From Escherichia phage PGN6866, in the sequence record MT127620: a stretch of 64,000 nt of DNA; one strand, given 5' to 3'. The notes under the pieces are model-generated. The model ran no database searches and was not told the DNA's origin. It saw nothing but the letters and a program-made list of their open reading frames with translations. This document shows, piece by piece, positions 3,012 through 60,891 of the stretch. The position numbers were made by a program, and so were the translations under genes. Every line of letters begins with the position of its first letter. The first letter of the stretch is position 1.

Positions 3012-4343
3012 GATATTCACCTTTCAATTGTAAGGGCGCTATTGCCCCGCTCTCTATGAGCTTATTTAAGTCACTATTAACTTAACTATAACCACTCGTT
3101 GTTAAGTAGTTATAGGTAAGCGGGGCGGTCTTATCAGGAGTTAACCTTGCCGCCCCCTTATCCGTGATGTTTCATCTGGTATCTTTAATTAGTCGCTATA
3201 AACGAAGCCGACCTGATAGCGATGATCAATCATCACAATAAGGCTATGCGTCCGACTCTATTTAATTACATTGCTGTAACCGTCGGCAATATCGTCTACT
3301 TTGTTTTCGCTCCCGCTTATCCTTTTGTATCAGCTCTCTATCGCTAGTCATCGCCCACTACGGGATACTATTGCGAAAGAGTCACTAACCGCCTAGTATT
3401 CCGGCGTTTTATATCTTTCGGCGGGTTTACTACATAACCCGACTATGTACTTTCATCTTGTGATGAATCTCAAGCCGTTCACATCGTAAACGTTCGCATT
3501 AAACCTTATTGTTAAATAGCAATTTGCCACTTTTTAACCACTCCCCGCCGCTCTCAATTGAGCGTTAATTCGTCGGGCTTGCCTACCCTGATTAACTTCT
3601 TTCACTGTAGCGCCTTGTTAGCGATGACCGCCGCTACCCTTAACCGTGGGCGATTAGCTTAAGTCTTTGCGTACACTCAATGAATCCGTTTATCAGTGGT
3701 GACGTTTCCAGTAAGGGAATGTAAAACTGTTTACCCTGATAATTTAGGGAGTTTTACGCCGTTTTATCTGGTATGTTATCCGATGGTTATTATCATCTAA
3801 CATATTCAACCGATATAGGAGAATGTTTAAATTATTAAAGAGCGGTAAATCTATCAGTGTGCTTTCTCACACTATGCAACTGTTAGCCGTTGTTACGCTT
3901 TTCACTGAAGCGATGATTTGCTTAGTGAGTGCTCATTATGAATCATGTTGTTTTCGCTGTCAACCGCTTTTTAATCTTTTTTCGTCGTTCCCGCTATTGG
4001 GAGGATATATCAATCAGCTTTATTTGATTGAAGATTAAGCGGTGAGGCTTAACTTATGATTCATATTGTTAAAGAGCGTTTTTTAGCCTTTTATAGTGTC
4101 TGCTAATCACTGCATCATTGAAGGCTTACTGATTCATTAACAGGACGCCTAACCCTGAACTACTCGCTGCACTATGTGCCACCTTTCCCGCGATACGTTG
4201 ATTTGGGAACTTGTTAGCGGTGTATCTGCTAACTTGTGGTTAGTATGGACTACTTTAACCACGTTTGCAACTCTTTTTATCATCTTCTTTTAATTCCTTT
4301 CCCTTATCTCGCGTGAATCTATGCGAAAGGGCAAGATGATAAG

Positions 4344-4359
4344 TTTTTAAAGAGCGGGA
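4344..4359. repeat. copy 1 of 15-mer TTTTTAAAGAGCGGG
   Basis: Identical 15-mer also at 4451..4465; shorter TTAAAGAGCG versions at 3835..3845 and 4069..4078. Confidence 0.8.
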
Positions 4360-4450
4360 TTTTTAAGTCATCGCTGACTATGCTCACTATATATCAGGCT
4401 GTTTTCGGTGTCAATACTCTTTTTGAGAATATTTTCACTTTCTAGCCTGA

Positions 4451-4465
4451 TTTTTAAAGAGCGGG
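4451..4465. repeat. copy 2 of 15-mer TTTTTAAAGAGCGGG
   Basis: Direct reading. Confidence 0.8.
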
Positions 4466-4692
4466 GGCAAGTTTCCTTGCCTTGTATGTTTTACATCGTA
4501 CCCGATGAATTGAAGTATACATTAACCAATGATGGTTGCAATAGGGTAAAGCAAATTATTTTAAACTTTTTTATAGTGGGATAGATAAAAGAACGGGCGC
4601 GCGTGATACATCATAGGAAACGGCTTGTAAAGCAACAATAAGCGTCCTAAAACGCATCACAACGAGCTAAAAGGGAGTAAGGCATACAATCA

Positions 4693-6753: not shown

Positions 6754-7418
6754 TCAATCGATAGCTTCAATTTACTACTACTTAATAAGGAAAGCAAGTG
6801 CCACGGGTAAACTATTTCTACTATCTATATAGGACGGGGAACACACAACCGCAGAACAGACCACGGGGAAACATAGCAAGATAGTGCGGTAGTAATATAC
6901 CACTTAAATAATTAGTTAACTATTAATAGCATTACTCAAACATCAAAGACCATTCGCTACGCTCATGTACGCTGAAAAAAGAAGTAATAAAAGAAACAAT
7001 AAACATCAAACATAATCTTTCCACTTAATTAATACATACATCATTATTGCACTCATAATCATTACTATTGAAACTATTATCAACGTAACTATGGGGGAAT
7101 GGGGTAGTAACTAGGGGGTATTATTAGCTTATTCATAGTGCCTTAATCTAATCATTATACAGTGCTAGCCTTTCTCTCACTCTTTAAAGGGGAACTAAAT
7201 AAACGGGTAGGTAATGTATTGGGTAGTATACACGGGGAAAGAATAACGGGGAGTAGGCACGGGGAAAGGTGGAACGTTGAAAGGGAAGGTAAAGGCATTG
7301 CCAATAACCCTTTTTTAAATGAGGACTCCCCCTTTTTAGGAAACACGCGGGAAGCGGCTAGCCCCATTCGGTCAAATCAGAATTTTAAACTCTTATATAT
7401 AAGGTTGAAAGAGAACTT

Positions 7419-8621: not shown

Positions 8622-8650
8622 GCCTCCATTGGGAGGCTTTTTGTGTTGTT
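8622..8650 (+). terminator. putative rho-independent terminator
   Basis: GCCTCC-ATTG-GGAGGC hairpin followed by TTTTTGTGTTGTT. Confidence 0.5.
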
Positions 8651-8672
8651 GATAATGTAGAAGGAGTATAAA

Positions 8673-9146
8673 ATGTTTGGAGAAAACGGAGAACTCACGC
8701 CTGCACAGGTAGCTGAGATTACAGGAAGATTACCCGGAGTAACGGAAGAACTTGAAGGCCGTGGTATGAACCCAAGCAATGGGAAGTTTCAAAAGGGAAA
8801 TAAATTCGGACGACCCAGAGGTAGTAGAGGTAAACTGACACAATTAATGTTGGACCGTGTTGCTGCAAGTCATTTGTCTCCTGATGAAGTGTTAATTCAA
8901 ATTTACGAAGATCCTAATATTCCACCTGATCTTAGATTCAAGGCTGCATCAAAAGTTGCAGATCTGGTATATCCTAAGGCGGCCTCTGTTGAAGTTAAGA
9001 TTGAGGAAGAGAATGTAATCAACGAAGAATCATTGAATGCACAAATCAAGGACTTCTTGACTGGAGCACTTGGTATCGACGTTATGCCTCCAGAAGAAGA
9101 CAACTCTGAGGACGCTGAAAAGGGGGAGGAAGCGGACGAGAGTTAA
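8673..9146 (+). CDS. putative terminase small subunit
   Basis: 157-aa basic N-terminus and acidic C-terminus, immediately upstream of large terminase; positional inference. Confidence 0.4.
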   Translation: MFGENGELTPAQVAEITGRLPGVTEELEGRGMNPSNGKFQKGNKFGRPRGSRGKLTQLMLDRVAASHLSPDEVLIQIYEDPNIPPDLRFKAASKVADLVYPKAASVEVKIEEENVINEESLNAQIKDFLTGALGIDVMPPEEDNSEDAEKGEEADES

Positions 9147-16099: not shown

Positions 16100-16105
16100 A
16101 ACTAG

Positions 16106-16135
16106 ACCCTGCCTTCGGGCGGGGTTTTTTCGTTT
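16106..16135 (+). terminator. rho-independent terminator after the capsid gene
   Basis: 8-bp stem ACCCTGCC / GGCGGGGT with UUCG loop followed by TTTTTTCGTTTT. Confidence 0.6.
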
Positions 16136-16200
16136 TAAGACCTATACAAGCAAGTGTGTAATGTATATTCTTTGTCTACATATAACAAGGAGGACAACCT

Positions 16201-16953
16201 ATGGCAATGCCAGATGTTCAATACCCCATCAATACCTATGGGTGGCTAAAGAAGGCCGTGGCCCTCTGGGCAGATAGGGACGACGATGAATTTGTTAATC
16301 AAATTCCAAACTTTATTAACTTTGCAGAGAAAGAGATTTATCGTAACTTACGTATTCCTCCTCTGGAAAAAGAAGTATATTTAGATATTAAAGATGGAGT
16401 AGCTTACATTCCTCCTGATTACTTAGAAGCTCAATGGATGATGAGAGCCAAAGATGGCACAATCTTCCAAGTAACCTCTCCTGAAGAGATTAGCTATCGT
16501 AGACAGCATGGAACAATTAACCCATCTCACTGGAATAACCAACCTGTCAACTTTGCTCGTTTCGGTAGTCGTTTCATTTTCTACCCTAGCATCGAAGCAG
16601 ATACTCCGTACTACCCTGATGATGGAAGCCCTTTGATTCCAGCAGAAAACTCAGTGATTCTTAGCTATTATGCAGACCCACCGGAATTCCATGAAGATAC
16701 AGATACTAGTACTATTCTTACTATAGCACCAGAACTTCTTCTGTACTTCACCCTACGTCATGCTTGTCTCTTTGTTCAAGATGATAATGGTGTTCAGAAA
16801 TGGTCAGCATTAGGAAAAGCTATCCTTGATGAAATGGTAGAACAGAATAAGAAACAAGAGTACTCAGGTTCACCTATCGCAATTCCGAATAACATGACTC
16901 GACTTCAGAGCAGCCTGCCTGATATTTATGGTATTCGTACTTCTCGTGTATAA
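16201..16953 (+). CDS. virion structural protein (adaptor or tail tubular candidate)
   Basis: 250 aa, strong Shine-Dalgarno AAGGAGG, first gene after the capsid terminator. Confidence 0.45.
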   Translation: MAMPDVQYPINTYGWLKKAVALWADRDDDEFVNQIPNFINFAEKEIYRNLRIPPLEKEVYLDIKDGVAYIPPDYLEAQWMMRAKDGTIFQVTSPEEISYRRQHGTINPSHWNNQPVNFARFGSRFIFYPSIEADTPYYPDDGSPLIPAENSVILSYYADPPEFHEDTDTSTILTIAPELLLYFTLRHACLFVQDDNGVQKWSALGKAILDEMVEQNKKQEYSGSPIAIPNNMTRLQSSLPDIYGIRTSRV

Positions 16954-29362: not shown

Positions 29363-30415
29363 ATGTCTTTATTTGGAAAATCAGCTTCTAGCAAAACCAC
29401 AGTGGCCCCTTCCTCTCAGGTTGATGCCCTGCTGAAGCAGATTGTTGCTAATGCTCAAAATATGCAGAACAACGATCCGGGATTCATCTCCCAACAGCTG
29501 GCTGGGTTTAATGGCAACCAACAAGGTGCTCTGAACAACTTAGCAGCTTCTATTACTCAGAAGAAACTAGCTGATATGTATACACCACGTACACAGCAAG
29601 GGTTGGACCAATTAAACTCTCTTGCCCAGCAGTATCAGAATATTGTTAATGGTGGTGGAGTAACGGCTGAAGGGGTTAATAACTTTAGTAAAGGTTTGAA
29701 TAACTCAGCCCTTGCACAAGCTACTAGCAAAGCAGCTTCTAATGTCTCTCTTGGCAATGGTTCTGATTCAGGTTCTCTCCGTAGAGCTGCTGCTCAAGGT
29801 GCTGCTCTGAACAGTGCTAATACAAACTTAGCTCGTACTATCAGTGGCAAGAATATGGGAATCAGCGCTCTTCAACAAGATCAAAACTTCCAGAGAGGCT
29901 TACTTGGCGCTCAGTCAGGATTGGCTGGACAGAATCTCAATCTTGGTGCTCAAGGTGTTCAGGCAACTCAACAAGCTATCCAGAATCAACTCATGGCTGG
30001 TAATCTACAACAACAACAAGCCCAAGCTCAAGCTGATATTAATTGGCAGAACGCTATTGGCTCTCAGCAGTATGGGTGGAATCAGCTTAACAACCAACTT
30101 AATGTATTAAATAGTGTAAGCCCAATGGCTGGGTATACGATTAAGAATGCCACTCCGGGCGTTAATACAGGACAGCAGATTCTCGGCGCTGGTATCACTG
30201 GATTAGGTATTGCAGGTCGTATGGGTGCTTTCTCTCCTAATCAACAGACTCAGAATGCTTGGAGTTCCTATAACAACTCAGGTGGGCAATCTGGAATGGC
30301 TGGCCCTATGATTGGAGGTTCTAATCTTTCTCAACAGAGAGGTCAGTCTAACTGGTTATCCACAGCAGGTAGTAATATCTTAGGTGGTGTCTTAGGGGCG
30401 TTTGGAGCAAACTAA
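29363..30415 (+). CDS. Q/N/G-rich low-complexity virion protein
   Basis: 350 aa; NLQQQQAQAQADINWQNA and related tracts. Confidence 0.45.
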   Translation: MSLFGKSASSKTTVAPSSQVDALLKQIVANAQNMQNNDPGFISQQLAGFNGNQQGALNNLAASITQKKLADMYTPRTQQGLDQLNSLAQQYQNIVNGGGVTAEGVNNFSKGLNNSALAQATSKAASNVSLGNGSDSGSLRRAAAQGAALNSANTNLARTISGKNMGISALQQDQNFQRGLLGAQSGLAGQNLNLGAQGVQATQQAIQNQLMAGNLQQQQAQAQADINWQNAIGSQQYGWNQLNNQLNVLNSVSPMAGYTIKNATPGVNTGQQILGAGITGLGIAGRMGAFSPNQQTQNAWSSYNNSGGQSGMAGPMIGGSNLSQQRGQSNWLSTAGSNILGGVLGAFGAN

Positions 30416-31409: not shown

Positions 31410-33065
31410 ATGCAACAGACAACTTACGCTCAGGTCAGAAGTCGTGACCCGAGAAATACTTTCTATGGTGTTAATCCGGGAGCGGCTTCGGCCTCTCCTT
31501 ATATGGCTAGACCAACTCAGACAGCAGATATTTCTATGTATCAACGTCCTGCTGTACCTTCATCTCTTGCGGGTCTTGTCTCTCAGGCAGAAGAAGATCA
31601 GAATGCTATGGTTAATCCGGGATTCCAGCAACGTCTTATGGAACAGCAGAATCAAGGAACTCCTACCAGTCTTCAGGGTATTGATATTGGAGCACCGGCC
31701 CCTGTAGCAGCTAATCCTAACCTATCCACTGATCAGGGTTTACAGGATGCTGGGCTTATGCCTAGTGACCCTCTTCCGGTAACACCTCCTCCTAAACCAC
31801 TAGAAGCTGGTCCTATAGAGTTTACTCCTTCTCAGGTGGAGCAGGCACAAGGTGTGATTAATACTCTTGCTCAAGGACAAGACGCTGGTGATGGGATGAC
31901 TGCTGCTACTCGTGCTAAAGATCAAGAACGTGTTAACAATGATATCTTGCAAGTTGCGAAAGCTAAAGACCCTTCAGAAGCTTGGAACAAACTACAGAAA
32001 GAACCATTCTATCAGAACTCTAGTTTCTACACAGGGTTGATGGGTGTAGGTCTTTCCATTATGTCAGGTAAGTCTCCTATCGAAGCTTTCCAGATTGGTC
32101 AGGGAATGGCTAATCAAGATGAGACTAAGAAGCAACTGGAAGCTAACCGTGATGCTCTGATTGAACAAGGTTTCTCTCAAGACTCAATCGCAGCTGCTAT
32201 TGCTAACGGAGACCCATCTCTTCTGAAGATGAAAGCTGTAGACCCTGCTCAGAAAGAAGCTCTGTATGCTGCTCGTGAAGAACGTCAGAATGCTGAATGG
32301 GACAGACGTCAACAGATTCAAGAGCAGGCTATGCGTGAACGTGCCGAGGAAACTCGTCGTGCTGCTGAAAAGAGAACTGATATGAACTTTGAACGTCAGA
32401 AAGAGTTGATTGGCTATCGTGATAAAGTTAAGGCTGAACGTGCTGAACAAGTTGCTCAAAGTTTCAACTTCCCCACGAAAGAAATTCGTAACGCTCAGAA
32501 TACAGCTGAAGGTACTATCGCTAAGCAATGGGCAGAGAAAGGTGGCTTGTTTAACCAGTCTAATAAAGACTTGGATTTGGCTGATAAAGCTGTTAAGGAC
32601 AAAGACTATCAGACGGCCCGTTCTGCTTACATGCAGGCTATCATGAACTCCGCAAGGGCTGAAATTGGTTCTACTCGTTCTCTCACTGAAGAAGATTTGG
32701 GACATTTTGCAGAAGACCCATCAATCTTTATCCGTGTAGGTAACAAGTTTGCTCTGAAGTCTGGATGGCGTCCTACTGATGCTGCTCTTGCTTATGCTCG
32801 TAAACAGGCTAACGTCGGTCACACCTCTGCTATGAAAGGTGTTGCTGATGCTAAGAGAGATACCATCAACGCTTATATTGGTTCTGGTATGGATAAGAAG
32901 AGAGCTACTGCATTGGTTAACCGTGCAATTCCTTCTGGCGGTTTCTATGACCCTCTTGGTGCTTTCTCTGAAGAAGCAGAGGAGGCAGTTGGTGGTGCAG
33001 CAACCAATCCTAAGCTTAACGGTGCTTTATCAGCTGTCGAAGACACTAGCTGGTTCACACAATAA
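31410..33065 (+). CDS. internal virion protein candidate
   Basis: 551 aa in the same co-oriented string. Confidence 0.4.
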   Translation: MQQTTYAQVRSRDPRNTFYGVNPGAASASPYMARPTQTADISMYQRPAVPSSLAGLVSQAEEDQNAMVNPGFQQRLMEQQNQGTPTSLQGIDIGAPAPVAANPNLSTDQGLQDAGLMPSDPLPVTPPPKPLEAGPIEFTPSQVEQAQGVINTLAQGQDAGDGMTAATRAKDQERVNNDILQVAKAKDPSEAWNKLQKEPFYQNSSFYTGLMGVGLSIMSGKSPIEAFQIGQGMANQDETKKQLEANRDALIEQGFSQDSIAAAIANGDPSLLKMKAVDPAQKEALYAAREERQNAEWDRRQQIQEQAMRERAEETRRAAEKRTDMNFERQKELIGYRDKVKAERAEQVAQSFNFPTKEIRNAQNTAEGTIAKQWAEKGGLFNQSNKDLDLADKAVKDKDYQTARSAYMQAIMNSARAEIGSTRSLTEEDLGHFAEDPSIFIRVGNKFALKSGWRPTDAALAYARKQANVGHTSAMKGVADAKRDTINAYIGSGMDKKRATALVNRAIPSGGFYDPLGAFSEEAEEAVGGAATNPKLNGALSAVEDTSWFTQ

Positions 33066-33132
33066 GACCTAAGTCCTGCCTTCTATAATGTATATAGGGG
33101 GTAGGACATTTTTATTTATAAAAGGAGACGTT

Positions 33133-36100
33133 ATGGCTAACATTAAACCGTGGGAAGAAGCTTCCAAAGCTCCTGCGTATCTGAATGCCTCTCCGGAGCA
33201 ACAAGCTCAAATGAGAGAACAATATAAGGCAGCAGGTGGCTCTATTCCTGAGGAACAACCAGTAGCACAACCACAACAAGAAGAACGTGGTGCTATAGGT
33301 GAGTTTGCTCAAGGTGTGTCAAATGCTCTTCAATCTGGTGGTGCAAATATTGCAGCTAGTGCTGCTAAAGGTATTGGTGGTTTAGTTGAGATTGGTGAGA
33401 ATCTAGCTGGAGCACAGACTAGTTATGGTAAGCGTATCCAAGAGAACTCTCAGAACCTTCTGAAAGAACGTATGGATAAGATTGAGGATGGGATTGGCAA
33501 AACTGTCGGTCAGTATGCTGGCGTTGCTGGCGATATTGGTATGACTGTTGCTAACCCATTGGCTGCTGCTGCTATCATCGCAGGTCGTGAGACAGGTCGT
33601 GCATATGCAGACCAAACCCCTGAAGAGGGAGAAGATAAGTCTATTCTAGATGCAGCCTTAGTTGGTGGTGCTAACTATGCGGCTCAGAGAATCCTTCCGG
33701 GTGCTGTTGGTACAGCTGAGTCCACACTTGGACGTATTGGTCAGAACGTTGCTAGTAACGCAGTGGCTGGTGCTAAAGGTGGTGCTCTTGTGGGTGCTGC
33801 TGAAGCTCAGAACAAGCACGGAGATGACACAACCTTTGCTAATGTATTAGAAAGTGCTATCGAAGAAGGTGCTATGGGTGCTGCATTCGGTGGTGCAGTT
33901 GGTGGGGTTCATGGTTTGATTAGCCGTCCGGATTCTGCTGTCTTCAAGAATACTCCAGAGTATGCGAAGACTGATATTGCTGCTGATGACGAACTGATTC
34001 GTAGTGCTAAGAATATTGATGAATTGAAAGAAGCTTACTCTAAAGCTGAAACTGCTAACGCTGCTTCTGCTCTGAACCTTCTGGATGAGAATGGATTCCG
34101 TATTACAGATGCTGTTGCTGTAGATTCTCCTGCTGCTCAGCGTATTCTTAATACTGACCAAGCTCGTGCTGAGAAAGCTGCTTCCGTTCAGAAAGAACAT
34201 TCCAACATTCCGGGCCTCAACCCTTTAGCTTCTCCTGCTAAGACTCGGGGTAAAGCATTCGCTGATAACGAGCACAACCAGAAGCAGGCTGTTGCTATGA
34301 AGGATGCAATGGCTGATTACACCAAAGACAACACGAAAGCCCTTACAGATGTTCTAGATAACCTAGACCGTGAATTAACTTCTCTCCGAGCTTCTGGTGA
34401 TTTTACTGGTAGTCCGATTGATATTAAGAACCGTACACAAGCCGACCGTGATTTCATTGATGCTTATAAGACTTTCTACAATGAAGCAAATCGATTCAAA
34501 GCTCGTGATGGTGAAGACTTTAATAACTTTGTAGAGAAAGCTGCTGAACTACAGAAGATGGCTGATAATGTTTCTCCAGAGATGAAGAAAGCTATCGGTG
34601 GGTTGAAGAAACTGAAAGGTATGCCTGAAGGTTTTAATCCTATTCAAGATGCTTACACTCTGAATAATACAGCTAAGTTTATGAGTAACCAAGATCGTGG
34701 TTGGACTTCCCTGACTGATGATGGATTCCGTGAGGCTTCTTCTCCTAGTCTGGTAATGAACACTCTCGGTGCTGCTAAATATGCTCTGAATCGCTTCTCT
34801 TCTCAGCGTGCCCGTTCTCAACGTGTTAAGCAACAAGAGTCTAACAGTGAAGCTATCCGCTCTCTGGCTCGTGGTGATTTGGAAGTTGCTCGTGCTAAAT
34901 CTACTGCTGATGAAGCTCGTGCTAAAATGGAAGAAGAACCAGTTGTTGATGACATTAAATTTAAGACGCAAAATGACGTAGAAACCGAACCGGTTCGGGA
35001 GCCTTCTTCTAGTACTGTGACGGAAGAAAATCTTCCTTCTTCTACTCCTCAAGAAACCCCTCTCACAGCTCGTGATTTAGTTGCGCAAAGACGCGCTATC
35101 CGTCAGGCTGAACAGCGTCGCGCTGAAGAAGAGGCAGCAGCAGCAGCTCAAGAAGCTCCGGTCGAACAAGCTCCACAGGCTGAACCTCTCCCTGCTCGTA
35201 ACCCTCTAGAGGAGCGTCGTGCAATGGAACAGCAACGTGCTCAAGAAGAGGCCGCACAGGCTCCAGAACCAACCGTAGAGGAACCAACAGTCAAAGCTGA
35301 GCCATTACCTGCTCGTGCTCCTAAAGCTCCTAAGGAAGCTGTACAGGACGTTAAACCGGCAAGTGGTGTAGAACGTTTAGCTGCTATGTCTAGTGCTGCT
35401 CGTCAGGCTACTAAAGATCGTGCAGAACGCTTTGCTCGTTCTCTGTACTCTAAGGCTGCTAAAGCTAAAGCTACTGCTGAAAACTTCTTGGCTTATAAAG
35501 GCGATCCTAAGGAACTGATGCGTCGTATTCGTCAGGAAGATAATGCTATCAACACTGAACGTCATGAAGAAATGGCTCGTAACCAGCTGGCTTCTCAGCA
35601 AGGTATTGCTACTGCTAAGAACAACACTGTACGAACTAATTTTGCTGAATGGGTTAAGGAACGTGGCCTGCCAGAAGATATTGCTACTAAGGCATTACGT
35701 GCTGAAGAGAAAGGCTTAGGTGGGAACGTAACTAACTTGGATAGTCTGAAACGTCGTGCTGAAAGGTTGTATCAGAAGCAGCGTGAGGATGAGTTTGATA
35801 GACTGTACCAACAAGCTCTAGAAGAGAACAAAGCTTTCGATAAGAAAGATGCTCCTAAACTGGTTGATCAGAAGAAAGAGCTTCAGTCTGAGATTGATGC
35901 TTTGATTGATTCAGAACCTTTACGTCCTGCTCAGAAAGATGCTATGCGTAAGCTGATGAATGACTTTGTAGATGGGAAGTTTAAATCTTCAGAGAAGGCT
36001 GGTAGGGAAGAGGCTTTGGAAGTTGGTCAGATGAAGGATATTTGGGATGGGTTTATTAACACCTATAACAGAGAAGTGAATGCCTTCAACAAAGCTAACA

Positions 36101-40087: not shown

Positions 40088-41573
<1,486 letters not shown>

Positions 41574-42126: not shown

Positions 42127-42873
42127 TTAGAATGGGCTATCGTTGTCGTCTTCGTAAGTAGAAGCAGGCTCTTTATCAATCGTAGGGATTGAAGGGGTAG
42201 CTTCTTTCTGCTCTGTTTCAGAAGCACGAGTAATTTCACGACCAGCCAGAGGCATGTTCTTAGCGTCATTAGCTTGAGTAAGCAGGTTGCGCTGGAACGG
42301 GAACATCAGTTGATAGGATGCTACGTTCTCATCGGTTTCAGCATACGGTTCGAAGAATACCAGAGGACTACGAGCTTCACCAACTGCTGCACGATATTTG
42401 GTTGGGATTGGAGAAATAGTCTTGATGGAGTTTTTAACTTCACCAGCTTTGTTAGTGTAAGAGTTAACCAGAATGTTAACAGGCTGACCTAACAGAACAT
42501 CCTTGAACCAAGACAGATCACCTTTCAGTGCTTGAATACTTGGGTCAATCATCTTGCAAAGATCAAGAATACCAGAGTTCTTAGCTCGTGGGTTTACATC
42601 ATAGCTCTTGAACTGGCAAGCCGGACGTGGTTCTAATGCCTTACCATCGGAATCTTTACCAGTAGCATCAACACCAATCAGCTCGAAAGCTAAATCCATA
42701 CGGAAAGCCGGATTCTTAGGAGTCACTGCTTTGGTCTTCGGGTCAACCCAAGGGTCACGATTGTGAACACCCAAACCTACTACACGAACGATACGTGCTT
42801 CGTACTCACCATCAGGGATGATGTCGTAGTTGGATTTACGAGAAGAAGTTGCGATAGTTGGAATCATAGACAT
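42127..42873 (-). CDS. single-stranded DNA-binding protein candidate (T7 gp2.5-like architecture)
   Basis: 248 aa ending in acidic tail YEDDNDSPF with terminal Phe; lies in the replication module. Confidence 0.5.
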   Translation of the reverse strand: MSMIPTIATSSRKSNYDIIPDGEYEARIVRVVGLGVHNRDPWVDPKTKAVTPKNPAFRMDLAFELIGVDATGKDSDGKALEPRPACQFKSYDVNPRAKNSGILDLCKMIDPSIQALKGDLSWFKDVLLGQPVNILVNSYTNKAGEVKNSIKTISPIPTKYRAAVGEARSPLVFFEPYAETDENVASYQLMFPFQRNLLTQANDAKNMPLAGREITRASETEQKEATPSIPTIDKEPASTYEDDNDSPF

Positions 42874-43289
42874 ATTTTAATTTCCTTATTTAATTTGAAA
42901 GATTGTTGCTCTCTTTGAGCGGTTATGTATAGTATACATTACGCTTATACCGATAAGAGTACTATATAATATAAGTATCTTTGGTAGTAGATATAACACA
43001 CTAGTAATGTATATATTGTATAGCTGATAAAGTTATTGCAGGCTTGTATATTGGGCAATTCACAGAATCCCTTGCAAGTACCGAAGGGCAGGAGCCACCT
43101 GCGAGATAAAAATAGAGAATTAAGGAATCCTTGATTTAGGTTGTAGGGACTCCTAGGGACTTTGATTCTCTATTTAAAAGAATATTAATTACTTATTACC
43201 TAAATAATTAACTAACTTACTTAAACCAAATTCAATAAGAATAGATAAAAAGATTATTCCTAAGAAAGCTAAAAAGTAAAGGATATAAG

Positions 43290-43466
43290 TTACCATTCAA
43301 GTAAACCTTTAAAGTTAGACTGTTCTACTATCCTCTGATAACGAAGATTAGAATCAGCTTGTTTCTTTAACATCTCATTATATTTATCTCTGATAGAGTC
43401 TTTATAAACTACAGGTTCTTTAAATAATGAGATCTTCTTTTTCTCAGAGTTAGATAGTACATCCAT
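43290..43466 (-). CDS. hypothetical protein
   Basis: Trimmed to internal Met (MDVLSNSEKKK); overlaps 43450..43677. Confidence 0.3.
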   Translation of the reverse strand: MDVLSNSEKKKISLFKEPVVYKDSIRDKYNEMLKKQADSNLRYQRIVEQSNFKGLLEW

Positions 43467-49373: not shown

Positions 49374-49703
49374 TTAGATTTCTCCTGATTCTCTTTGATT
49401 AAAGGTGTGGATGGCGTGGCAATTAGCACACAATATCCTGCACTTCCTCATCTCTTCTTTTACTTGAGATAAAGATCTGGTGTGCCCTTTGGAGAGTTCG
49501 AATGACTTAGTTAATGGATTTAAATGATCAAACTGAAGAGCAGATGCGTGGCCCTTAAAGCCACACTCAGAGCATCCATAGAATGTTTTAACTCTACGGA
49601 TAAAAGCTAGTTGCCTAACTCTTCTTTTCTCGTTATCTGCCTTTCTCTTATCTCTATTTCCTGGGTCGGCCCATCTACACGAGTCATTGCAAAACCTCTG
49701 CAT
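49374..49703 (-). CDS. HNH endonuclease
   Basis: 109 aa; CSECGF...LQFDHLNP...CRILCANCH. Confidence 0.65.
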   Translation of the reverse strand: MQRFCNDSCRWADPGNRDKRKADNEKRRVRQLAFIRRVKTFYGCSECGFKGHASALQFDHLNPLTKSFELSKGHTRSLSQVKEEMRKCRILCANCHAIHTFNQRESGEI

Positions 49704-49791
49704 TATATACTTCGTTACAAATGGTACCTTACAGGTTTCACATTCCTTGTGGTATGTTGCTATTTGGACCCCCTTGTGTGAACTATAAGAA

Positions 49792-50241
49792 TCAACTCTC
49801 TTCTAGTATAATCCTGTACATTGCTTCCTGAGCATCTTTCATATCTACATATGGACCAAGCACCTCACTATCTTTTCTGATGAACCAATCACCTTCTTTG
49901 AATATCAGAGATACGTGAACATCTTTATTATTTGCTTTGACTGCTCGCCCCCATGCTGGGTTATGTCGGGATAAATTATCAATATGACAATTATCAGTGC
50001 GCCCATCCAGATGGTGTAAATAAGATTGAGGCCACTGGCCTGTCTCTTTATACCATACGGCTTTCTTCAATTCAACAATGCCACATGGTAGTCCTATGTA
50101 TAGGATATTAGGCTGTAAGCTAAAATTATACCACTTAGATGTGAAAGGGATTAGAGGTTCCCTTTTGGTGAAAAACATCGGCCCCTCTCGAATGTATTCT
50201 AGACTATCTATACACTTCAAAATCTTTTCACTATAAAGCAT
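49792..50241 (-). CDS. HNH endonuclease (HNH_3-like)
   Basis: 149 aa; YLHHLDGRTDNCHIDNLSRHN. Confidence 0.55.
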   Translation of the reverse strand: MLYSEKILKCIDSLEYIREGPMFFTKREPLIPFTSKWYNFSLQPNILYIGLPCGIVELKKAVWYKETGQWPQSYLHHLDGRTDNCHIDNLSRHNPAWGRAVKANNKDVHVSLIFKEGDWFIRKDSEVLGPYVDMKDAQEAMYRIILEES

Positions 50242-54477: not shown

Positions 54478-54799
54478 TTGGGTTTTCTCCATCAAGTTCA
54501 ACTGAGTTAGCAACGTTACGTGCAATATTATCCATTACCTGCTGGGTAATTACGATGCAGTTCTGTGGGTCTACTGACTTAGAACGCCCCATTTCAGGGT
54601 CATACACCTTAACTCGCTTAGCAGTTGAACCTGTAACCTGAAGAACCTTCAACAGATACCCCTGATTACCAATAGACCAAGCAACAACATCACGATTCTT
54701 GATAAAGCGACCAAGCATATCACGATGATAAAACTGTTGCATCACCTTGGATTTTGTAATCTCTTCAGTGGGCGGGGCCACTTTACTCAAATCTAACAT
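54470..54799 (-). CDS. hypothetical protein
   Basis: 109-aa ORF. Confidence 0.4.
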   Translation of the reverse strand: MLDLSKVAPPTEEITKSKVMQQFYHRDMLGRFIKNRDVVAWSIGNQGYLLKVLQVTGSTAKRVKVYDPEMGRSKSVDPQNCIVITQQVMDNIARNVANSVELDGENPNA

Positions 54800-54871
54800 A
54801 ACTCTCTCCTGTAAAATACAAATTCTTATTGTACTCTATATACATTTGAGAGTTATCATATCTACTACCAA

Positions 54872-60705: not shown

Positions 60706-60891
60706 TTACTCTGTAATAAAGATTTTGATTACACCACAGATTGCTGCACTCTCAAACACTGCAACATTTTCACTTCCCTGAAAGAAGGCCACTTTGCCGT
60801 CAGAGAAGTTAAACATGTCAGCATCTAGGTCCATAGCTCGCATTTCACCAGCGGCATTGGTATCTTTAAACAGAACTTTATACTTATTCAC
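60706..60891 (-). CDS. hypothetical protein
   Basis: 61-aa ORF. Confidence 0.3.
   Translation of the reverse strand: MNKYKVLFKDTNAAGEMRAMDLDADMFNFSDGKVAFFQGSENVAVFESAAICGVIKIFITE

What the first reader, a model, noticed from the sequence alone, without database searches (positions are those of the whole stretch)
16159..16167. Candidate phage-specific promoter motif TAATGTATA recurring upstream of genes
The 9-mer TAATGTATA occurs 33 nt upstream of the ATG of gene 16201 and 38 nt upstream of the ATG of gene 33133 (33086..33094). It occurs in minus orientation 62 nt upstream of the SSB-like gene (42933..42941) and at 4516..4524, and in plus orientation at 43005..43013, with one-mismatch variants at 7212..7220 and near 54839. 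The phage encodes its own ECF-like sigma factor, so these may be its promoters. From memory this resembles the promoter element reported for the phiEco32 sigma factor, which I cannot verify here.
Basis: partly seen in the sequence, partly recalled or inferred. Interest (0 to 1): 0.5.

Follow-up and report, generated by a model that had tools for sequence, protein, structure and literature searches.

The report
Known phiEco32 sigma-factor promoter motif
The repeated TAATGTATA is the already published promoter element read by the phage's own sigma factor (phiEco32 gp36). So the finding is correct but not new, although one copy on the opposite strand may be an unreported seventh promoter in front of a conserved non-coding RNA.

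Summary
The window is a phiEco32-like coliphage (Kuravirus, about 95% identical to phiEco32). TAATGTATA occurs 5 times against 0.63 expected. One-mismatch variants as a class are not enriched.

Published work defines the phiEco32 gp36-sigma promoters by the single element tAATGTAtA. The start site lies 6-8 bp downstream, and the promoters sit upstream of genes 6, 13, 26, 40, 58 and 68. The window's sigma factor (214/214 aa) and its co-factor gp79 (82/82 aa) are identical to phiEco32's.

- **Orthologous to published promoters:** 16159 (P13), 33086 (P26), 42933- (P40) and 54839- (P68).
P6 at 8653 (TAATGTAGA).
- **Absent here:** P58, replaced by two HNH endonuclease genes.
- **Not supported:** 4516- is a conserved sigma-70-type early promoter (TTGCAA-N16-TATACT) whose TAATG part varies among relatives. 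7212 is a chance match in the terminal repeat.
- **Possibly new:** 43005+ is conserved in all three Gordonclarkvirinae genera. It carries the same -35 hexamer (TTGGTA, G-37/A-34) and spacing as the structurally characterised P68. It precedes a roughly 160-nt almost invariant, ORF-free stretch whose 5' hairpin shows compensatory changes.

Verdict: already known, with one modest new lead.

The parts
16159..16167 (+). P13 late promoter core TAATGTATA (-15..-7). The predicted start site is G at 16174, giving a 27-nt leader to the ATG at 16201 (adaptor protein gene). The -35 hexamer TTAAGA is at 16135-16140 and the TAAGACCTA box at 16136-16144. An intrinsic terminator lies just upstream at 16104-16127.
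   Evidence: It is orthologous to phiEco32 9101 upstream of gene 13 (PMC4331800).
33086..33094 (+). P26 late promoter core TAATGTATA. The predicted start site is G at 33101, with the ATG at 33133. The -35 hexamer ATAAGA is at 33062-33067 and the TAAGACCTA box at 33063-33071. The core lies inside terminator hairpin 33073-33107.
   Evidence: It is orthologous to phiEco32 26014. P26 was transcribed in vitro by gp36 holoenzyme and stimulated 4-fold by gp79 (PMC12276001).
8653..8661 (+). The -35 hexamer TTGGGA is at 8629-8634, inside terminator hairpin 8622-8637. The predicted start site at 8668 is only 5 nt before the ATG at 8673 and lies downstream of the AGGAG ribosome-binding site.
   Evidence: The sequence is identical to phiEco32 1677 upstream of gene 6. 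The G at position 8 explains the lower-case t in the published consensus.
42933..42941 (-). P40 middle promoter core TAATGTATA. The predicted start site is at 42926, with the ATG of gene 40 at 42873. The -35 hexamer ATAGTA is at 42960-42965. It heads the operon that contains the sigma gene.
   Evidence: It is orthologous to phiEco32 36632(-). It is present in all 14 genomes compared.
54839..54847 (-). P68 middle promoter core AAATGTATA. The -35 hexamer TTGGTA is at 54866-54871, within the 13-mer TTGGTAGTAGATA at 54859-54871. The predicted start site is at 54832, with the ATG at 54799.
   Evidence: The sequence is identical to phiEco32 P68, which was the promoter used for the cryo-EM open complex. 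In my register, G-37 and A-34 of PMC12276001 fall on this hexamer.
43005..43013 (+). Predicted seventh gp36 promoter, not in the published list. It has a perfect core TAATGTATA, with the -35 hexamer TTGGTA at 42981-42986 (13-mer 42981-42993) at the same 18-nt spacing as P68. The predicted start site is A at 43020. It is divergent from P40.
   Evidence: The core and nTGGTA are conserved in Kuravirus, Nieuwekanaalvirus and Suseptimavirus and in the metagenome contigs except one, L029, whose core reads TAATATATA. The spacer sequence varies while its length stays fixed.
43020..43180 (+). Candidate non-coding RNA or cis element downstream of the 43005 promoter. It is almost invariant across three genera and has no ORF. 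It comprises a 5'-terminal hairpin, an invariant GCAGG-N5-CCUGC hairpin and a long 3' hairpin (about 43110-43175). On the minus strand that 3' hairpin is followed by a U-run.
   Evidence: There is no Rfam match and no E. coli match.
40467..41114 (-). Gene for the sigma factor (gp36 orthologue) that reads the motif.
   Evidence: It is 214/214 aa identical to phiEco32 gp36, and all contact residues named in PMC12276001 are present. The Pfam Sigma70_r2 hit is weak.
60888..61136 (-). Gene for the gp79 orthologue. gp79 is the sigma-70 inhibitor and gp36 co-activator.
   Evidence: It is 82/82 aa identical to phiEco32 gp79. Its function is taken from PMC12276001.
4514..4541 (-). Sigma-70-type early promoter TTGCAA-N16-TATACT. 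Its spacer plus -10 hexamer happen to spell TAATGTATA (4516-4524) in this phage. It is not supported as a gp36 promoter.
   Evidence: Relatives keep TTGCAA and TATACT but read TAGCG or TGGCG in place of TAATG. The -39..-34 hexamer is TACCCT. The site is absent from phiEco32.
7212..7220 (+). Chance one-mismatch match (TAATGTATT) inside the 193-bp terminal repeat (7167-7359).
   Evidence: phiEco32 and SU10 have TAATGAATA at this position.

Best explanation
TAATGTATA is the core (-10-like) promoter element recognised by E. coli RNA polymerase carrying the phage sigma factor gp36.

Mechanism, taken from the literature on phiEco32:
- The sigma-2-like N-terminal domain of gp36 reads AATGTA at -14..-9. 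It contacts A-14, A-13, the T-12 pair and G-11, and the DNA melts from -11 to +2.
- The sigma-4-like C-terminal domain touches the -35 region (G-37 and A-34 in P68).
- The small protein gp79 displaces region 4 of sigma-70, which shuts off host and early phage transcription. It also stabilises the gp36 C-terminal domain, raising transcription 3-4 fold.
- Transcription starts 6-8 bp after the element.

In this window the element marks five of the six published promoters. The late promoters are P6 (8653), P13 (16159) and P26 (33086), ahead of the structural-gene blocks. The middle promoters are P40 (42933-) and P68 (54839-), ahead of the replication and regulatory genes. P40 feeds the sigma gene itself.

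What is shown here: sequence identity of the sigma factor, of gp79 and of the promoters; positional orthology; conservation; and enrichment. What is inferred from phiEco32 experiments: actual transcription in this phage. In addition, the site at 43005(+) is predicted, not shown, to be a seventh gp36 promoter.
For: - **Enrichment:** 5 exact sites against 0.63 expected.
- **Identity of the phage:** the window is about 95% identical to phiEco32.
- **Published consensus:** the consensus, the start-site distance and the gene list 6/13/26/40/58/68 come from PMC8948821, PMC4331800 and PMC4281155.
- **Orthology:** the sites match the phiEco32 sites and are conserved in SU10, EP335, NC-B and SU7, while the flanks diverge to 75-90%.
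- **Proteins:** the sigma factor is 214/214 identical and gp79 is 82/82 identical, with all published contact residues present.
- **Register check:** placing AATGTA at -14..-9 puts the published G-37 and A-34 exactly on the TTGGTA hexamer of P68. A-34 and T-38 are present at all six conserved window sites, and positions -37 and -36 are purines.
- **Location:** all sites are intergenic.
Against: - There are no transcription data for this particular phage.
- One-mismatch variants are not enriched overall.
- P58 is missing.
- The -35 rule nTRRnA was derived partly from these same sites, so its fit is partly circular.
- The primary paper (Pavlova et al. 2012) could not be read. Its content is taken from three later papers that cite it.
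Confidence: 0.93

Rival explanations
1. The 9-mer is a chance recurrence of an AT-rich word.
For: One-mismatch matches occur at the chance rate. Sites 7212, 26621 and 33840 are not conserved.
Against: Exact copies are about 8-fold over expectation, and no shuffle reached 5. All the sites lie in the roughly 10% of the window that is non-coding. They are conserved across three genera where the flanks diverge.
Confidence: 0.01
2. The sites are ordinary host sigma-70 promoters, and the motif is a variant -10 or extended -10 element.
For: Site 4516(-) is best read this way (TTGCAA-N16-TATACT). The SU10 authors predicted sigma-70 promoters near the middle promoters. A TTTACT-N16-TATGAT lies just upstream of P68 (read directly from the sequence).
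Against: Published in vitro transcription and cryo-EM show gp36-dependent recognition of P26 and P68, with base contacts to AATG. Most sites have no TTGACA-like hexamer 16-18 bp upstream of a TATAAT-like hexamer. gp79 blocks sigma-70 holoenzyme at the time these genes are expressed.
Confidence: 0.04
3. The motif is an operator for a phage DNA-binding regulator rather than a promoter element.
For: Palindromic context occurs at P40 (TTATGTATA-g-TATACATTA, 42923-42941) and at P26 (a 15-bp inverted repeat around the core).
Against: The palindrome arm next to P40 is not kept as a motif copy in SU7 and NC-B. The P26 repeat is explained as a terminator hairpin followed by a U-run. Structural data show direct recognition by the sigma factor.
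Confidence: 0.02
4. For 43005(+) only: the copy is not an RNA gene promoter. It could be a relic duplication of the P68 cassette. It could be a transcription-activated replication origin, with a promoter followed by a structured and AT-rich region as at the T7 primary origin. Or the conserved downstream block may simply be the bidirectional terminator of the gene 57-41 operon.
For: On the minus strand the long hairpin is followed by UUUUUAU. An AT-rich stretch follows at 43180-43290. No transcript data exist. The site is not among the six published promoters.
Against: The core, the nTGGTA hexamer and the 18-nt spacing are kept in all 14 phage genomes compared and in all but one of the metagenome contigs (L029 reads TAATATATA), despite spacer turnover and different upstream contexts. 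The hairpin beginning at +2 shows compensatory changes. The plus strand folds better than the minus strand (-41.0 against -33.3 kcal/mol for the alignment). The AT-rich stretch is deleted in several relatives that keep the promoter and the structured block.
Confidence: 0.45

Closest known systems
phiEco32 gp36-dependent middle and late promoters (Pavlova et al. 2012, as cited in PMC8948821; structure in PMC12276001)
   Same: The core tAATGTAtA is the same. The sigma factor and gp79 are identical. Positions upstream of the orthologues of genes 6, 13, 26, 40 and 68 are the same, and the promoter sequences from -45 to +25 are identical or differ by one base.
   Different: P58 is absent here because two HNH endonuclease genes replace that intergenic region. 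An extra exact copy at 4516(-) is specific to this lineage and is probably not a gp36 promoter. The conserved plus-strand copy at 43005 is not in the published list.
Phage 7-11 gp47 late promoters (PMC8948821)
   Same: A phage-encoded distant sigma-70-family factor directs host core polymerase to late genes. The promoters sit at similar genome positions, including upstream of the gene-40 homologue.
   Different: The 7-11 consensus is bipartite and has a different sequence (GTAAtg-N16-aCTA). The two sigma factors are only about 15% identical. 7-11 has no gp79 homologue. It also has no long intergenic region upstream of the gene-40 homologue.
T4 late promoters read by gp55, and T4 middle-mode sigma appropriation (AsiA/MotA)
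   Same: T4 late promoters are also defined by a single short AT-rich -10-like element (own knowledge). The action of gp79 on region 4 of sigma-70 is compared with AsiA/MotA by the authors of PMC12276001.
   Different: gp36 has a sigma-4-like domain that contacts the -35 region, whereas T4 gp55 has none and depends on the sliding clamp. The element sequences are unrelated (TATAAATA in T4, from own knowledge).
Bacterial ECF (group 4) sigma factor promoters
   Same: The sigma factor has a two-domain (sigma-2 plus sigma-4) architecture and a bipartite contact with DNA.
   Different: The gp36 match to Pfam Sigma70_r2 is below the gathering threshold. The core sequence and the weak, degenerate -35 region differ from the usual AAC/CGT-type ECF elements (own knowledge).

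Membership tests
phiEco32 gp36-dependent promoters | Core element tAATGTAtA | tested here: met
   P13, P26 and P40 are exact. P6 reads TAATGTAGA and P68 reads AAATGTATA, the same deviations as in phiEco32.
phiEco32 gp36-dependent promoters | Located upstream of, and co-oriented with, the middle and late genes 6, 13, 26, 40, 58 and 68 | tested here: met
   Five of six orthologous positions are occupied. The P58 position is deleted and replaced by HNH genes.
phiEco32 gp36-dependent promoters | The cognate sigma factor gp36 is encoded by the same genome | tested here: met
   Window 40467-41114(-) is 214/214 identical. Residues E79, H80, Y83, R84, W90, S91, S94, N95, Y186 and R187 are all present.
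phiEco32 gp36-dependent promoters | The co-activator and sigma-70 inhibitor gp79 is encoded | tested here: met
   Window 60888-61136(-) is 82/82 identical.
phiEco32 gp36-dependent promoters | -35 region contacts (G-37 and A-34 in P68) | tested here: inconclusive
   A-34 and T-38 are present at 6 of 6 conserved sites. G-37 is present at 3 of 6 (P6, P68, 43005), and the other three have A. No -35 consensus has been published, to my knowledge.
phiEco32 gp36-dependent promoters | Transcription start 6-8 bp downstream of the element, with middle or late kinetics | not testable with these tools
   This needs primer extension or 5' RNA-seq. It is inferred from phiEco32 because the sequences are identical.
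phiEco32 gp36-dependent promoters | gp36 holoenzyme-dependent transcription in vitro | not testable with these tools
   This was done for phiEco32 P26 and P68, which have the same sequences (PMC12276001).
phiEco32 gp36-dependent promoters (applied to site 4516-) | Core conserved among relatives and a compatible -35 region | tested here: not met
   The TAATG part is replaced by TAGCG or TGGCG in ES17, SGF2 and XT73, while the sigma-70 hexamers are kept. The -39..-34 hexamer is TACCCT.
phiEco32 gp36-dependent promoters (applied to site 43005+) | Core plus the -35 contacts at P68 spacing, conserved among relatives | tested here: met
   TTGGTA-N18-TAATGTATA is conserved in 14 phage genomes and in most of the metagenome and viral contigs; one contig, L029, has TAATATATA in place of the core. 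The site is not upstream of a co-oriented protein gene and is not in the published list.
Rfam RNA families (for the 43020-43180 element) | Match to any curated covariance model | tested here: not met
   There are no gathering-score hits in the window, and only chance-level hits at E>2.

The most novel reading that the evidence does not exclude
The plus-strand copy at 43005 is a genuine, unreported seventh gp36-dependent promoter. It drives a structured non-coding RNA of about 160 nt (43020 to about 43180) that is conserved throughout the Gordonclarkvirinae. This RNA is made at middle or late times, convergent with the gene 57-41 operon and divergent from the P40 operon that contains the sigma gene. 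It could act as a regulatory or antisense RNA, or as an origin-activating transcript.
Probability: 0.35. Interest if true: 0.5.

Novelty: already known. Interest (0 to 1): 0.2.

Why it matters
For the motif itself it matters little, because it re-identifies a promoter class described in 2012 and solved structurally in 2025. It does allow confident annotation of the middle and late transcription units in this phage and its many relatives.

Three by-products are modestly useful:
- A conserved seventh promoter-like site that meets every known sequence determinant and faces a conserved structured non-coding block. It is testable with one primer extension or Northern blot.
- Comparative evidence for a weak -35 rule (nT-R-R-n-A at -39..-34), which fits the two contacts seen by cryo-EM. 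There is also a TAAGACCTA box shared only by the late promoters P13 and P26, which could bear on the unexplained middle-versus-late timing.
- Natural loss of P58 through homing-endonuclease insertion.

Tried and rejected
- **Primary paper:** Pavlova et al. 2012 (PMC3275717) is not held, so I relied on later papers that cite it.
- **Viral contigs:** a scan with the sigma protein gave only 4 loci, so I used GenBank phage records instead.
- **RNA families and tRNAs:** Rfam (gathering and permissive thresholds) and tRNA/tmRNA scans found nothing for the 43020-43180 block. There is also no similarity in E. coli genomes.
- **Distant relatives:** I looked for the block in 7-11, GAP52, Privateer and Aeromonas LAh_8. 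Their gene-40 homologues have only about 55-105 bp upstream, so there is no homologue. A covariance-model search was therefore not worth building.
- **Metagenome scan:** this gave only near-identical or already seen variants.
- **Literature:** a search for a phiEco32 or Kuravirus small RNA or transcriptome returned nothing relevant.
- **Other candidate sites:** 26621 and 33840 are not conserved. Site 30100 (TAATGTATT, inside gene 23) is conserved, but this cannot be separated from coding constraint. Sites 49815 (CAATGTACA) and gAATGTGAA upstream of the HNH gene lack the -35 features and have no orthologues.
- **TAAGACCTA as a general promoter box:** rejected, because its other two exact copies (7689-, 41187-) are not at the 14-nt spacing from a core.

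Full report
**Observation.** TAATGTATA occurs exactly five times in the window, at the coordinates and strands given (4516-, 16159+, 33086+, 42933-, 43005+). Dinucleotide-preserving shuffles give 0.63 on average and never reach five. With one mismatch allowed, there are 19 matches against 19.35 expected. The one-mismatch class as such therefore carries no signal, and each such site has to be judged separately. The stated distances to the ATGs at 16201 (33 nt) and 33133 (38 nt) are right. The distance to the ATG at 42873 is 59 nt rather than 62.

**What the window is.** An 8-kb piece is 95.3% identical to Escherichia phage phiEco32 and 99.5% identical to an unannotated record, phage PH444. Whole-window alignment shows collinearity with phiEco32. 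Window 7167 corresponds to phiEco32 position 1, and the window carries a single copy of the 193-bp terminal repeat at 7167-7359.

**What the literature says.**
[quoted passage not shown] Start sites lie 6-8 bp downstream.
- PMC4331800 names the genes as 6, 13, 26, 40, 58 and 68.
- PMC4281155 says three of the promoters are middle and three are late.
- PMC12276001 reports the cryo-EM open complex on P68. AATGTA is centred at -11.5, and the gp36 N-terminal domain contacts A-14, A-13, the T-12 pair and G-11. The DNA is open from -11 to +2. The sigma-4-like C-terminal domain contacts G-37 and A-34. gp79 stimulates P26 4-fold and P68 3-fold while blocking sigma-70 holoenzyme.
- The primary 2012 paper is not held.

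**Mapping to the published promoters.** In phiEco32 the motif sits at six positions:

| Promoter | phiEco32 position | Sequence |
|---|---|---|
| P6 | 1677 | TAATGTAGA |
| P13 | 9101 | TAATGTATA |
| P26 | 26014 | TAATGTATA |
| P40 | 36632- | TAATGTATA |
| P58 | 42937- | TAATGTATA |
| P68 | 46862- | AAATGTATA |

This reproduces the published consensus, including its two lower-case positions. The window orthologues are 8653 (P6), 16159 (P13), 33086 (P26), 42933- (P40) and 54839- (P68). They are identical to phiEco32 or differ by one base from -45 to +25. The same sites are kept in SU10, in EP335 (genus Nieuwekanaalvirus), and in SU7 and NC-B (SU7 is a Suseptimavirus; the NC-B record is filed under Kuravirus), although the surrounding alignments drop to 75-90% identity.

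The sigma gene (40467-41114-) encodes a protein 214/214 identical to gp36. All residues named in the structure paper are present. The gp79 orthologue (60888-61136-) is 82/82 identical.

**Sites that do not hold up.**
- *Site 4516(-).* This site lies in the long spacer that holds the early promoters. The scan finds TTGACA-17-TATAGT (4414-4386), TTGACA-17-CATAAT (3963-3935) and TTGCAA-16-TATACT (4541-4514). The last of these overlaps the motif. In ES17, SGF2 and XT73 the TAATG part reads TAGCG or TGGCG, while TTGCAA and TATACT are kept. phiEco32 has a different sequence there. The -39..-34 hexamer is TACCCT. The site is best read as a sigma-70 early promoter with a chance overlap.
- *Site 7212.* This site lies in the terminal repeat, and phiEco32 and SU10 read TAATGAATA there.
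- *Sites 26621 and 33840.* These are not conserved.

**P58 is missing.** The phiEco32 interval that carries gene 59 and P58 is replaced in the window by two ORFs with HNH-endonuclease domains, at 49374-49703 and 49792-50241. SU7 carries the same proximal HNH insertion and also lacks P58. Genes 58-41 would then depend on read-through from P68. This is an inference.

**A -35 register.** Setting AATGTA at -14..-9 places the published G-37 and A-34 on the TTGGTA hexamer of P68, which validates the register. The hexamers at -39..-34 are:

| Promoter | Hexamer at -39..-34 |
|---|---|
| P6 | TTGGGA |
| P13 | TTAAGA |
| P26 | ATAAGA |
| P40 | ATAGTA |
| P68 | TTGGTA |
| 43005 site | TTGGTA |
| phiEco32 P58 | TTAGCA |

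This gives nT-R-R-n-A, with A-34 invariant. Of the 13 AATGTAnA sites in the window, only the six conserved ones satisfy this rule. The rule is partly derived from those same sites, so the fit is partly circular. P13 and P26 additionally share an exact TAAGACCTA at -38..-30. It is kept at the same 14-nt distance in the other genera while the spacer sequence changes.

**The 43005(+) copy.**
- *Promoter features.* The site has a perfect core. It also has the 13-mer TTGGTAGTAGATA at the same spacing as P68, and this 13-mer occurs exactly twice in the window. Core, hexamer and spacing are conserved in all 14 phage genomes examined and in the further viral and metagenome contigs, with one exception: contig L029 reads TAATATATA. 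This includes a lineage where the upstream context is different and the hexamer reads ATGGTA. The 18-nt spacer changes sequence but not length. The site meets every known sequence determinant of a gp36 promoter, but it points away from gene 40 and towards the end of the gene 57-41 operon. It is not among the six published promoters, and the papers I could read do not mention it.
- *The block it faces.* The 160 nt that follow the predicted start (43020) are almost invariant across three genera, far above the neighbouring genes. They hold no credible ORF.
- *Strand preference.* The plus strand folds to -45.8 kcal/mol (z -2.4) and the minus strand to -35.3 (z -1.6). For the alignment the values are -41.0 and -33.3.
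- *Covariation.* The 5' hairpin begins at about +2 and shows compensatory changes at two pairs (UA/GC, and CG/UA/AU) plus GC/GU changes. The covariation score exceeds all 500 shuffles and all slid controls. The remaining helices are invariant and so say nothing either way.
- *Limits of the evidence.* The long 3' hairpin is followed by a U-run on the minus strand. It may therefore, also or instead, terminate the gene 57-41 operon. No Rfam family matches, and there is no E. coli homologue. Distant relatives have no room for the element. I rate a functional promoter at about 0.55, and a discrete ncRNA at about 0.35.

**Context of the late promoters.** The P26 core lies inside a 15-bp hairpin followed by ATTTTTATTT (33073-33107, z -4.3). 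The -35 hexamer of P6 lies in terminator 8622-8637. P13 follows terminator 16104-16127. Each late unit therefore begins at a terminator-promoter module. The predicted P6 start (8668) is 5 nt before the ATG and downstream of the AGGAG, so gene 6 would be nearly leaderless on that transcript. This is an inference.

**Verdict.** The only new material is one conserved extra site with a candidate non-coding RNA, plus some comparative detail on -35 regions.

Noticed in passing
window 43020-43180 (+): A block of about 160 nt between genes 40 and 41 is almost invariant and has no ORF. It lies just downstream of the conserved promoter-like site at 43005. It has a covarying 5' hairpin and no Rfam match, making it a candidate phage ncRNA or cis element.
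   Followed up: partly
window 49374-50241 (-): Two HNH endonuclease ORFs replace phiEco32 gene 59 and the P58 promoter. SU7 has the same proximal insertion, left unannotated in its record, and also lacks P58.
   Followed up: partly
window 16136-16144 and 33063-33071 (+): An exact TAAGACCTA box lies 14 nt upstream of the core in the two late promoters P13 and P26 only. The box and its spacing are conserved in other genera while the spacer sequence changes. It may be a late-class determinant.
   Followed up: partly
window 33073-33107, 8622-8637, 16104-16127 (+): Late promoters are fused to intrinsic terminators. The P26 core sits in the loop and stem of a 15-bp terminator hairpin, the -35 hexamer of P6 sits in a terminator hairpin, and P13 directly follows one.
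   Followed up: partly
window 8662-8675 (+): With the published 6-8 bp rule, the P6 transcript would start about 5 nt before the ATG of gene 6 and downstream of its AGGAG. Gene 6 would then be nearly leaderless on the late transcript.
   Followed up: no
window 3935-4541 (-): A cluster of three sigma-70-type promoters sits in the long gene-free spacer: TTGACA-17-CATAAT, TTGACA-17-TATAGT and TTGCAA-16-TATACT. It matches the three early promoters described for the corresponding spacer in phiEco32 and SU10. The segment 4463-4585 is a variable cassette that differs from phiEco32.
   Followed up: partly
window 7167-7359: The window runs across the phiEco32 genome ends with a single copy of the 193-bp terminal repeat. 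The closest record (PH444) is 114,913 bp, well above the roughly 77 kb of relatives. This suggests a permuted or concatemeric assembly.
   Followed up: no
window 30100-30108 (+): TAATGTATT lies inside gene 23 with a compatible -35 hexamer (GTGGAA). It is kept in five of six genomes, but this cannot be separated from coding constraint (Leu-Asn-Val-Leu).
   Followed up: partly
window 42923-42941: An imperfect palindrome TTATGTATA-g-TATACATTA overlaps P40 and its start site. A TGTATA/TATACA inverted repeat persists with different spacing in SU7 and NC-B.
   Followed up: no
window 43189-43296 (-): The 35-codon AT-rich ORF equivalent to phi32_41 is deleted in NC-B, TH34, Bas87, Bas88, XT73 and ECBP2. 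It is therefore dispensable and may not be a real gene.
   Followed up: no
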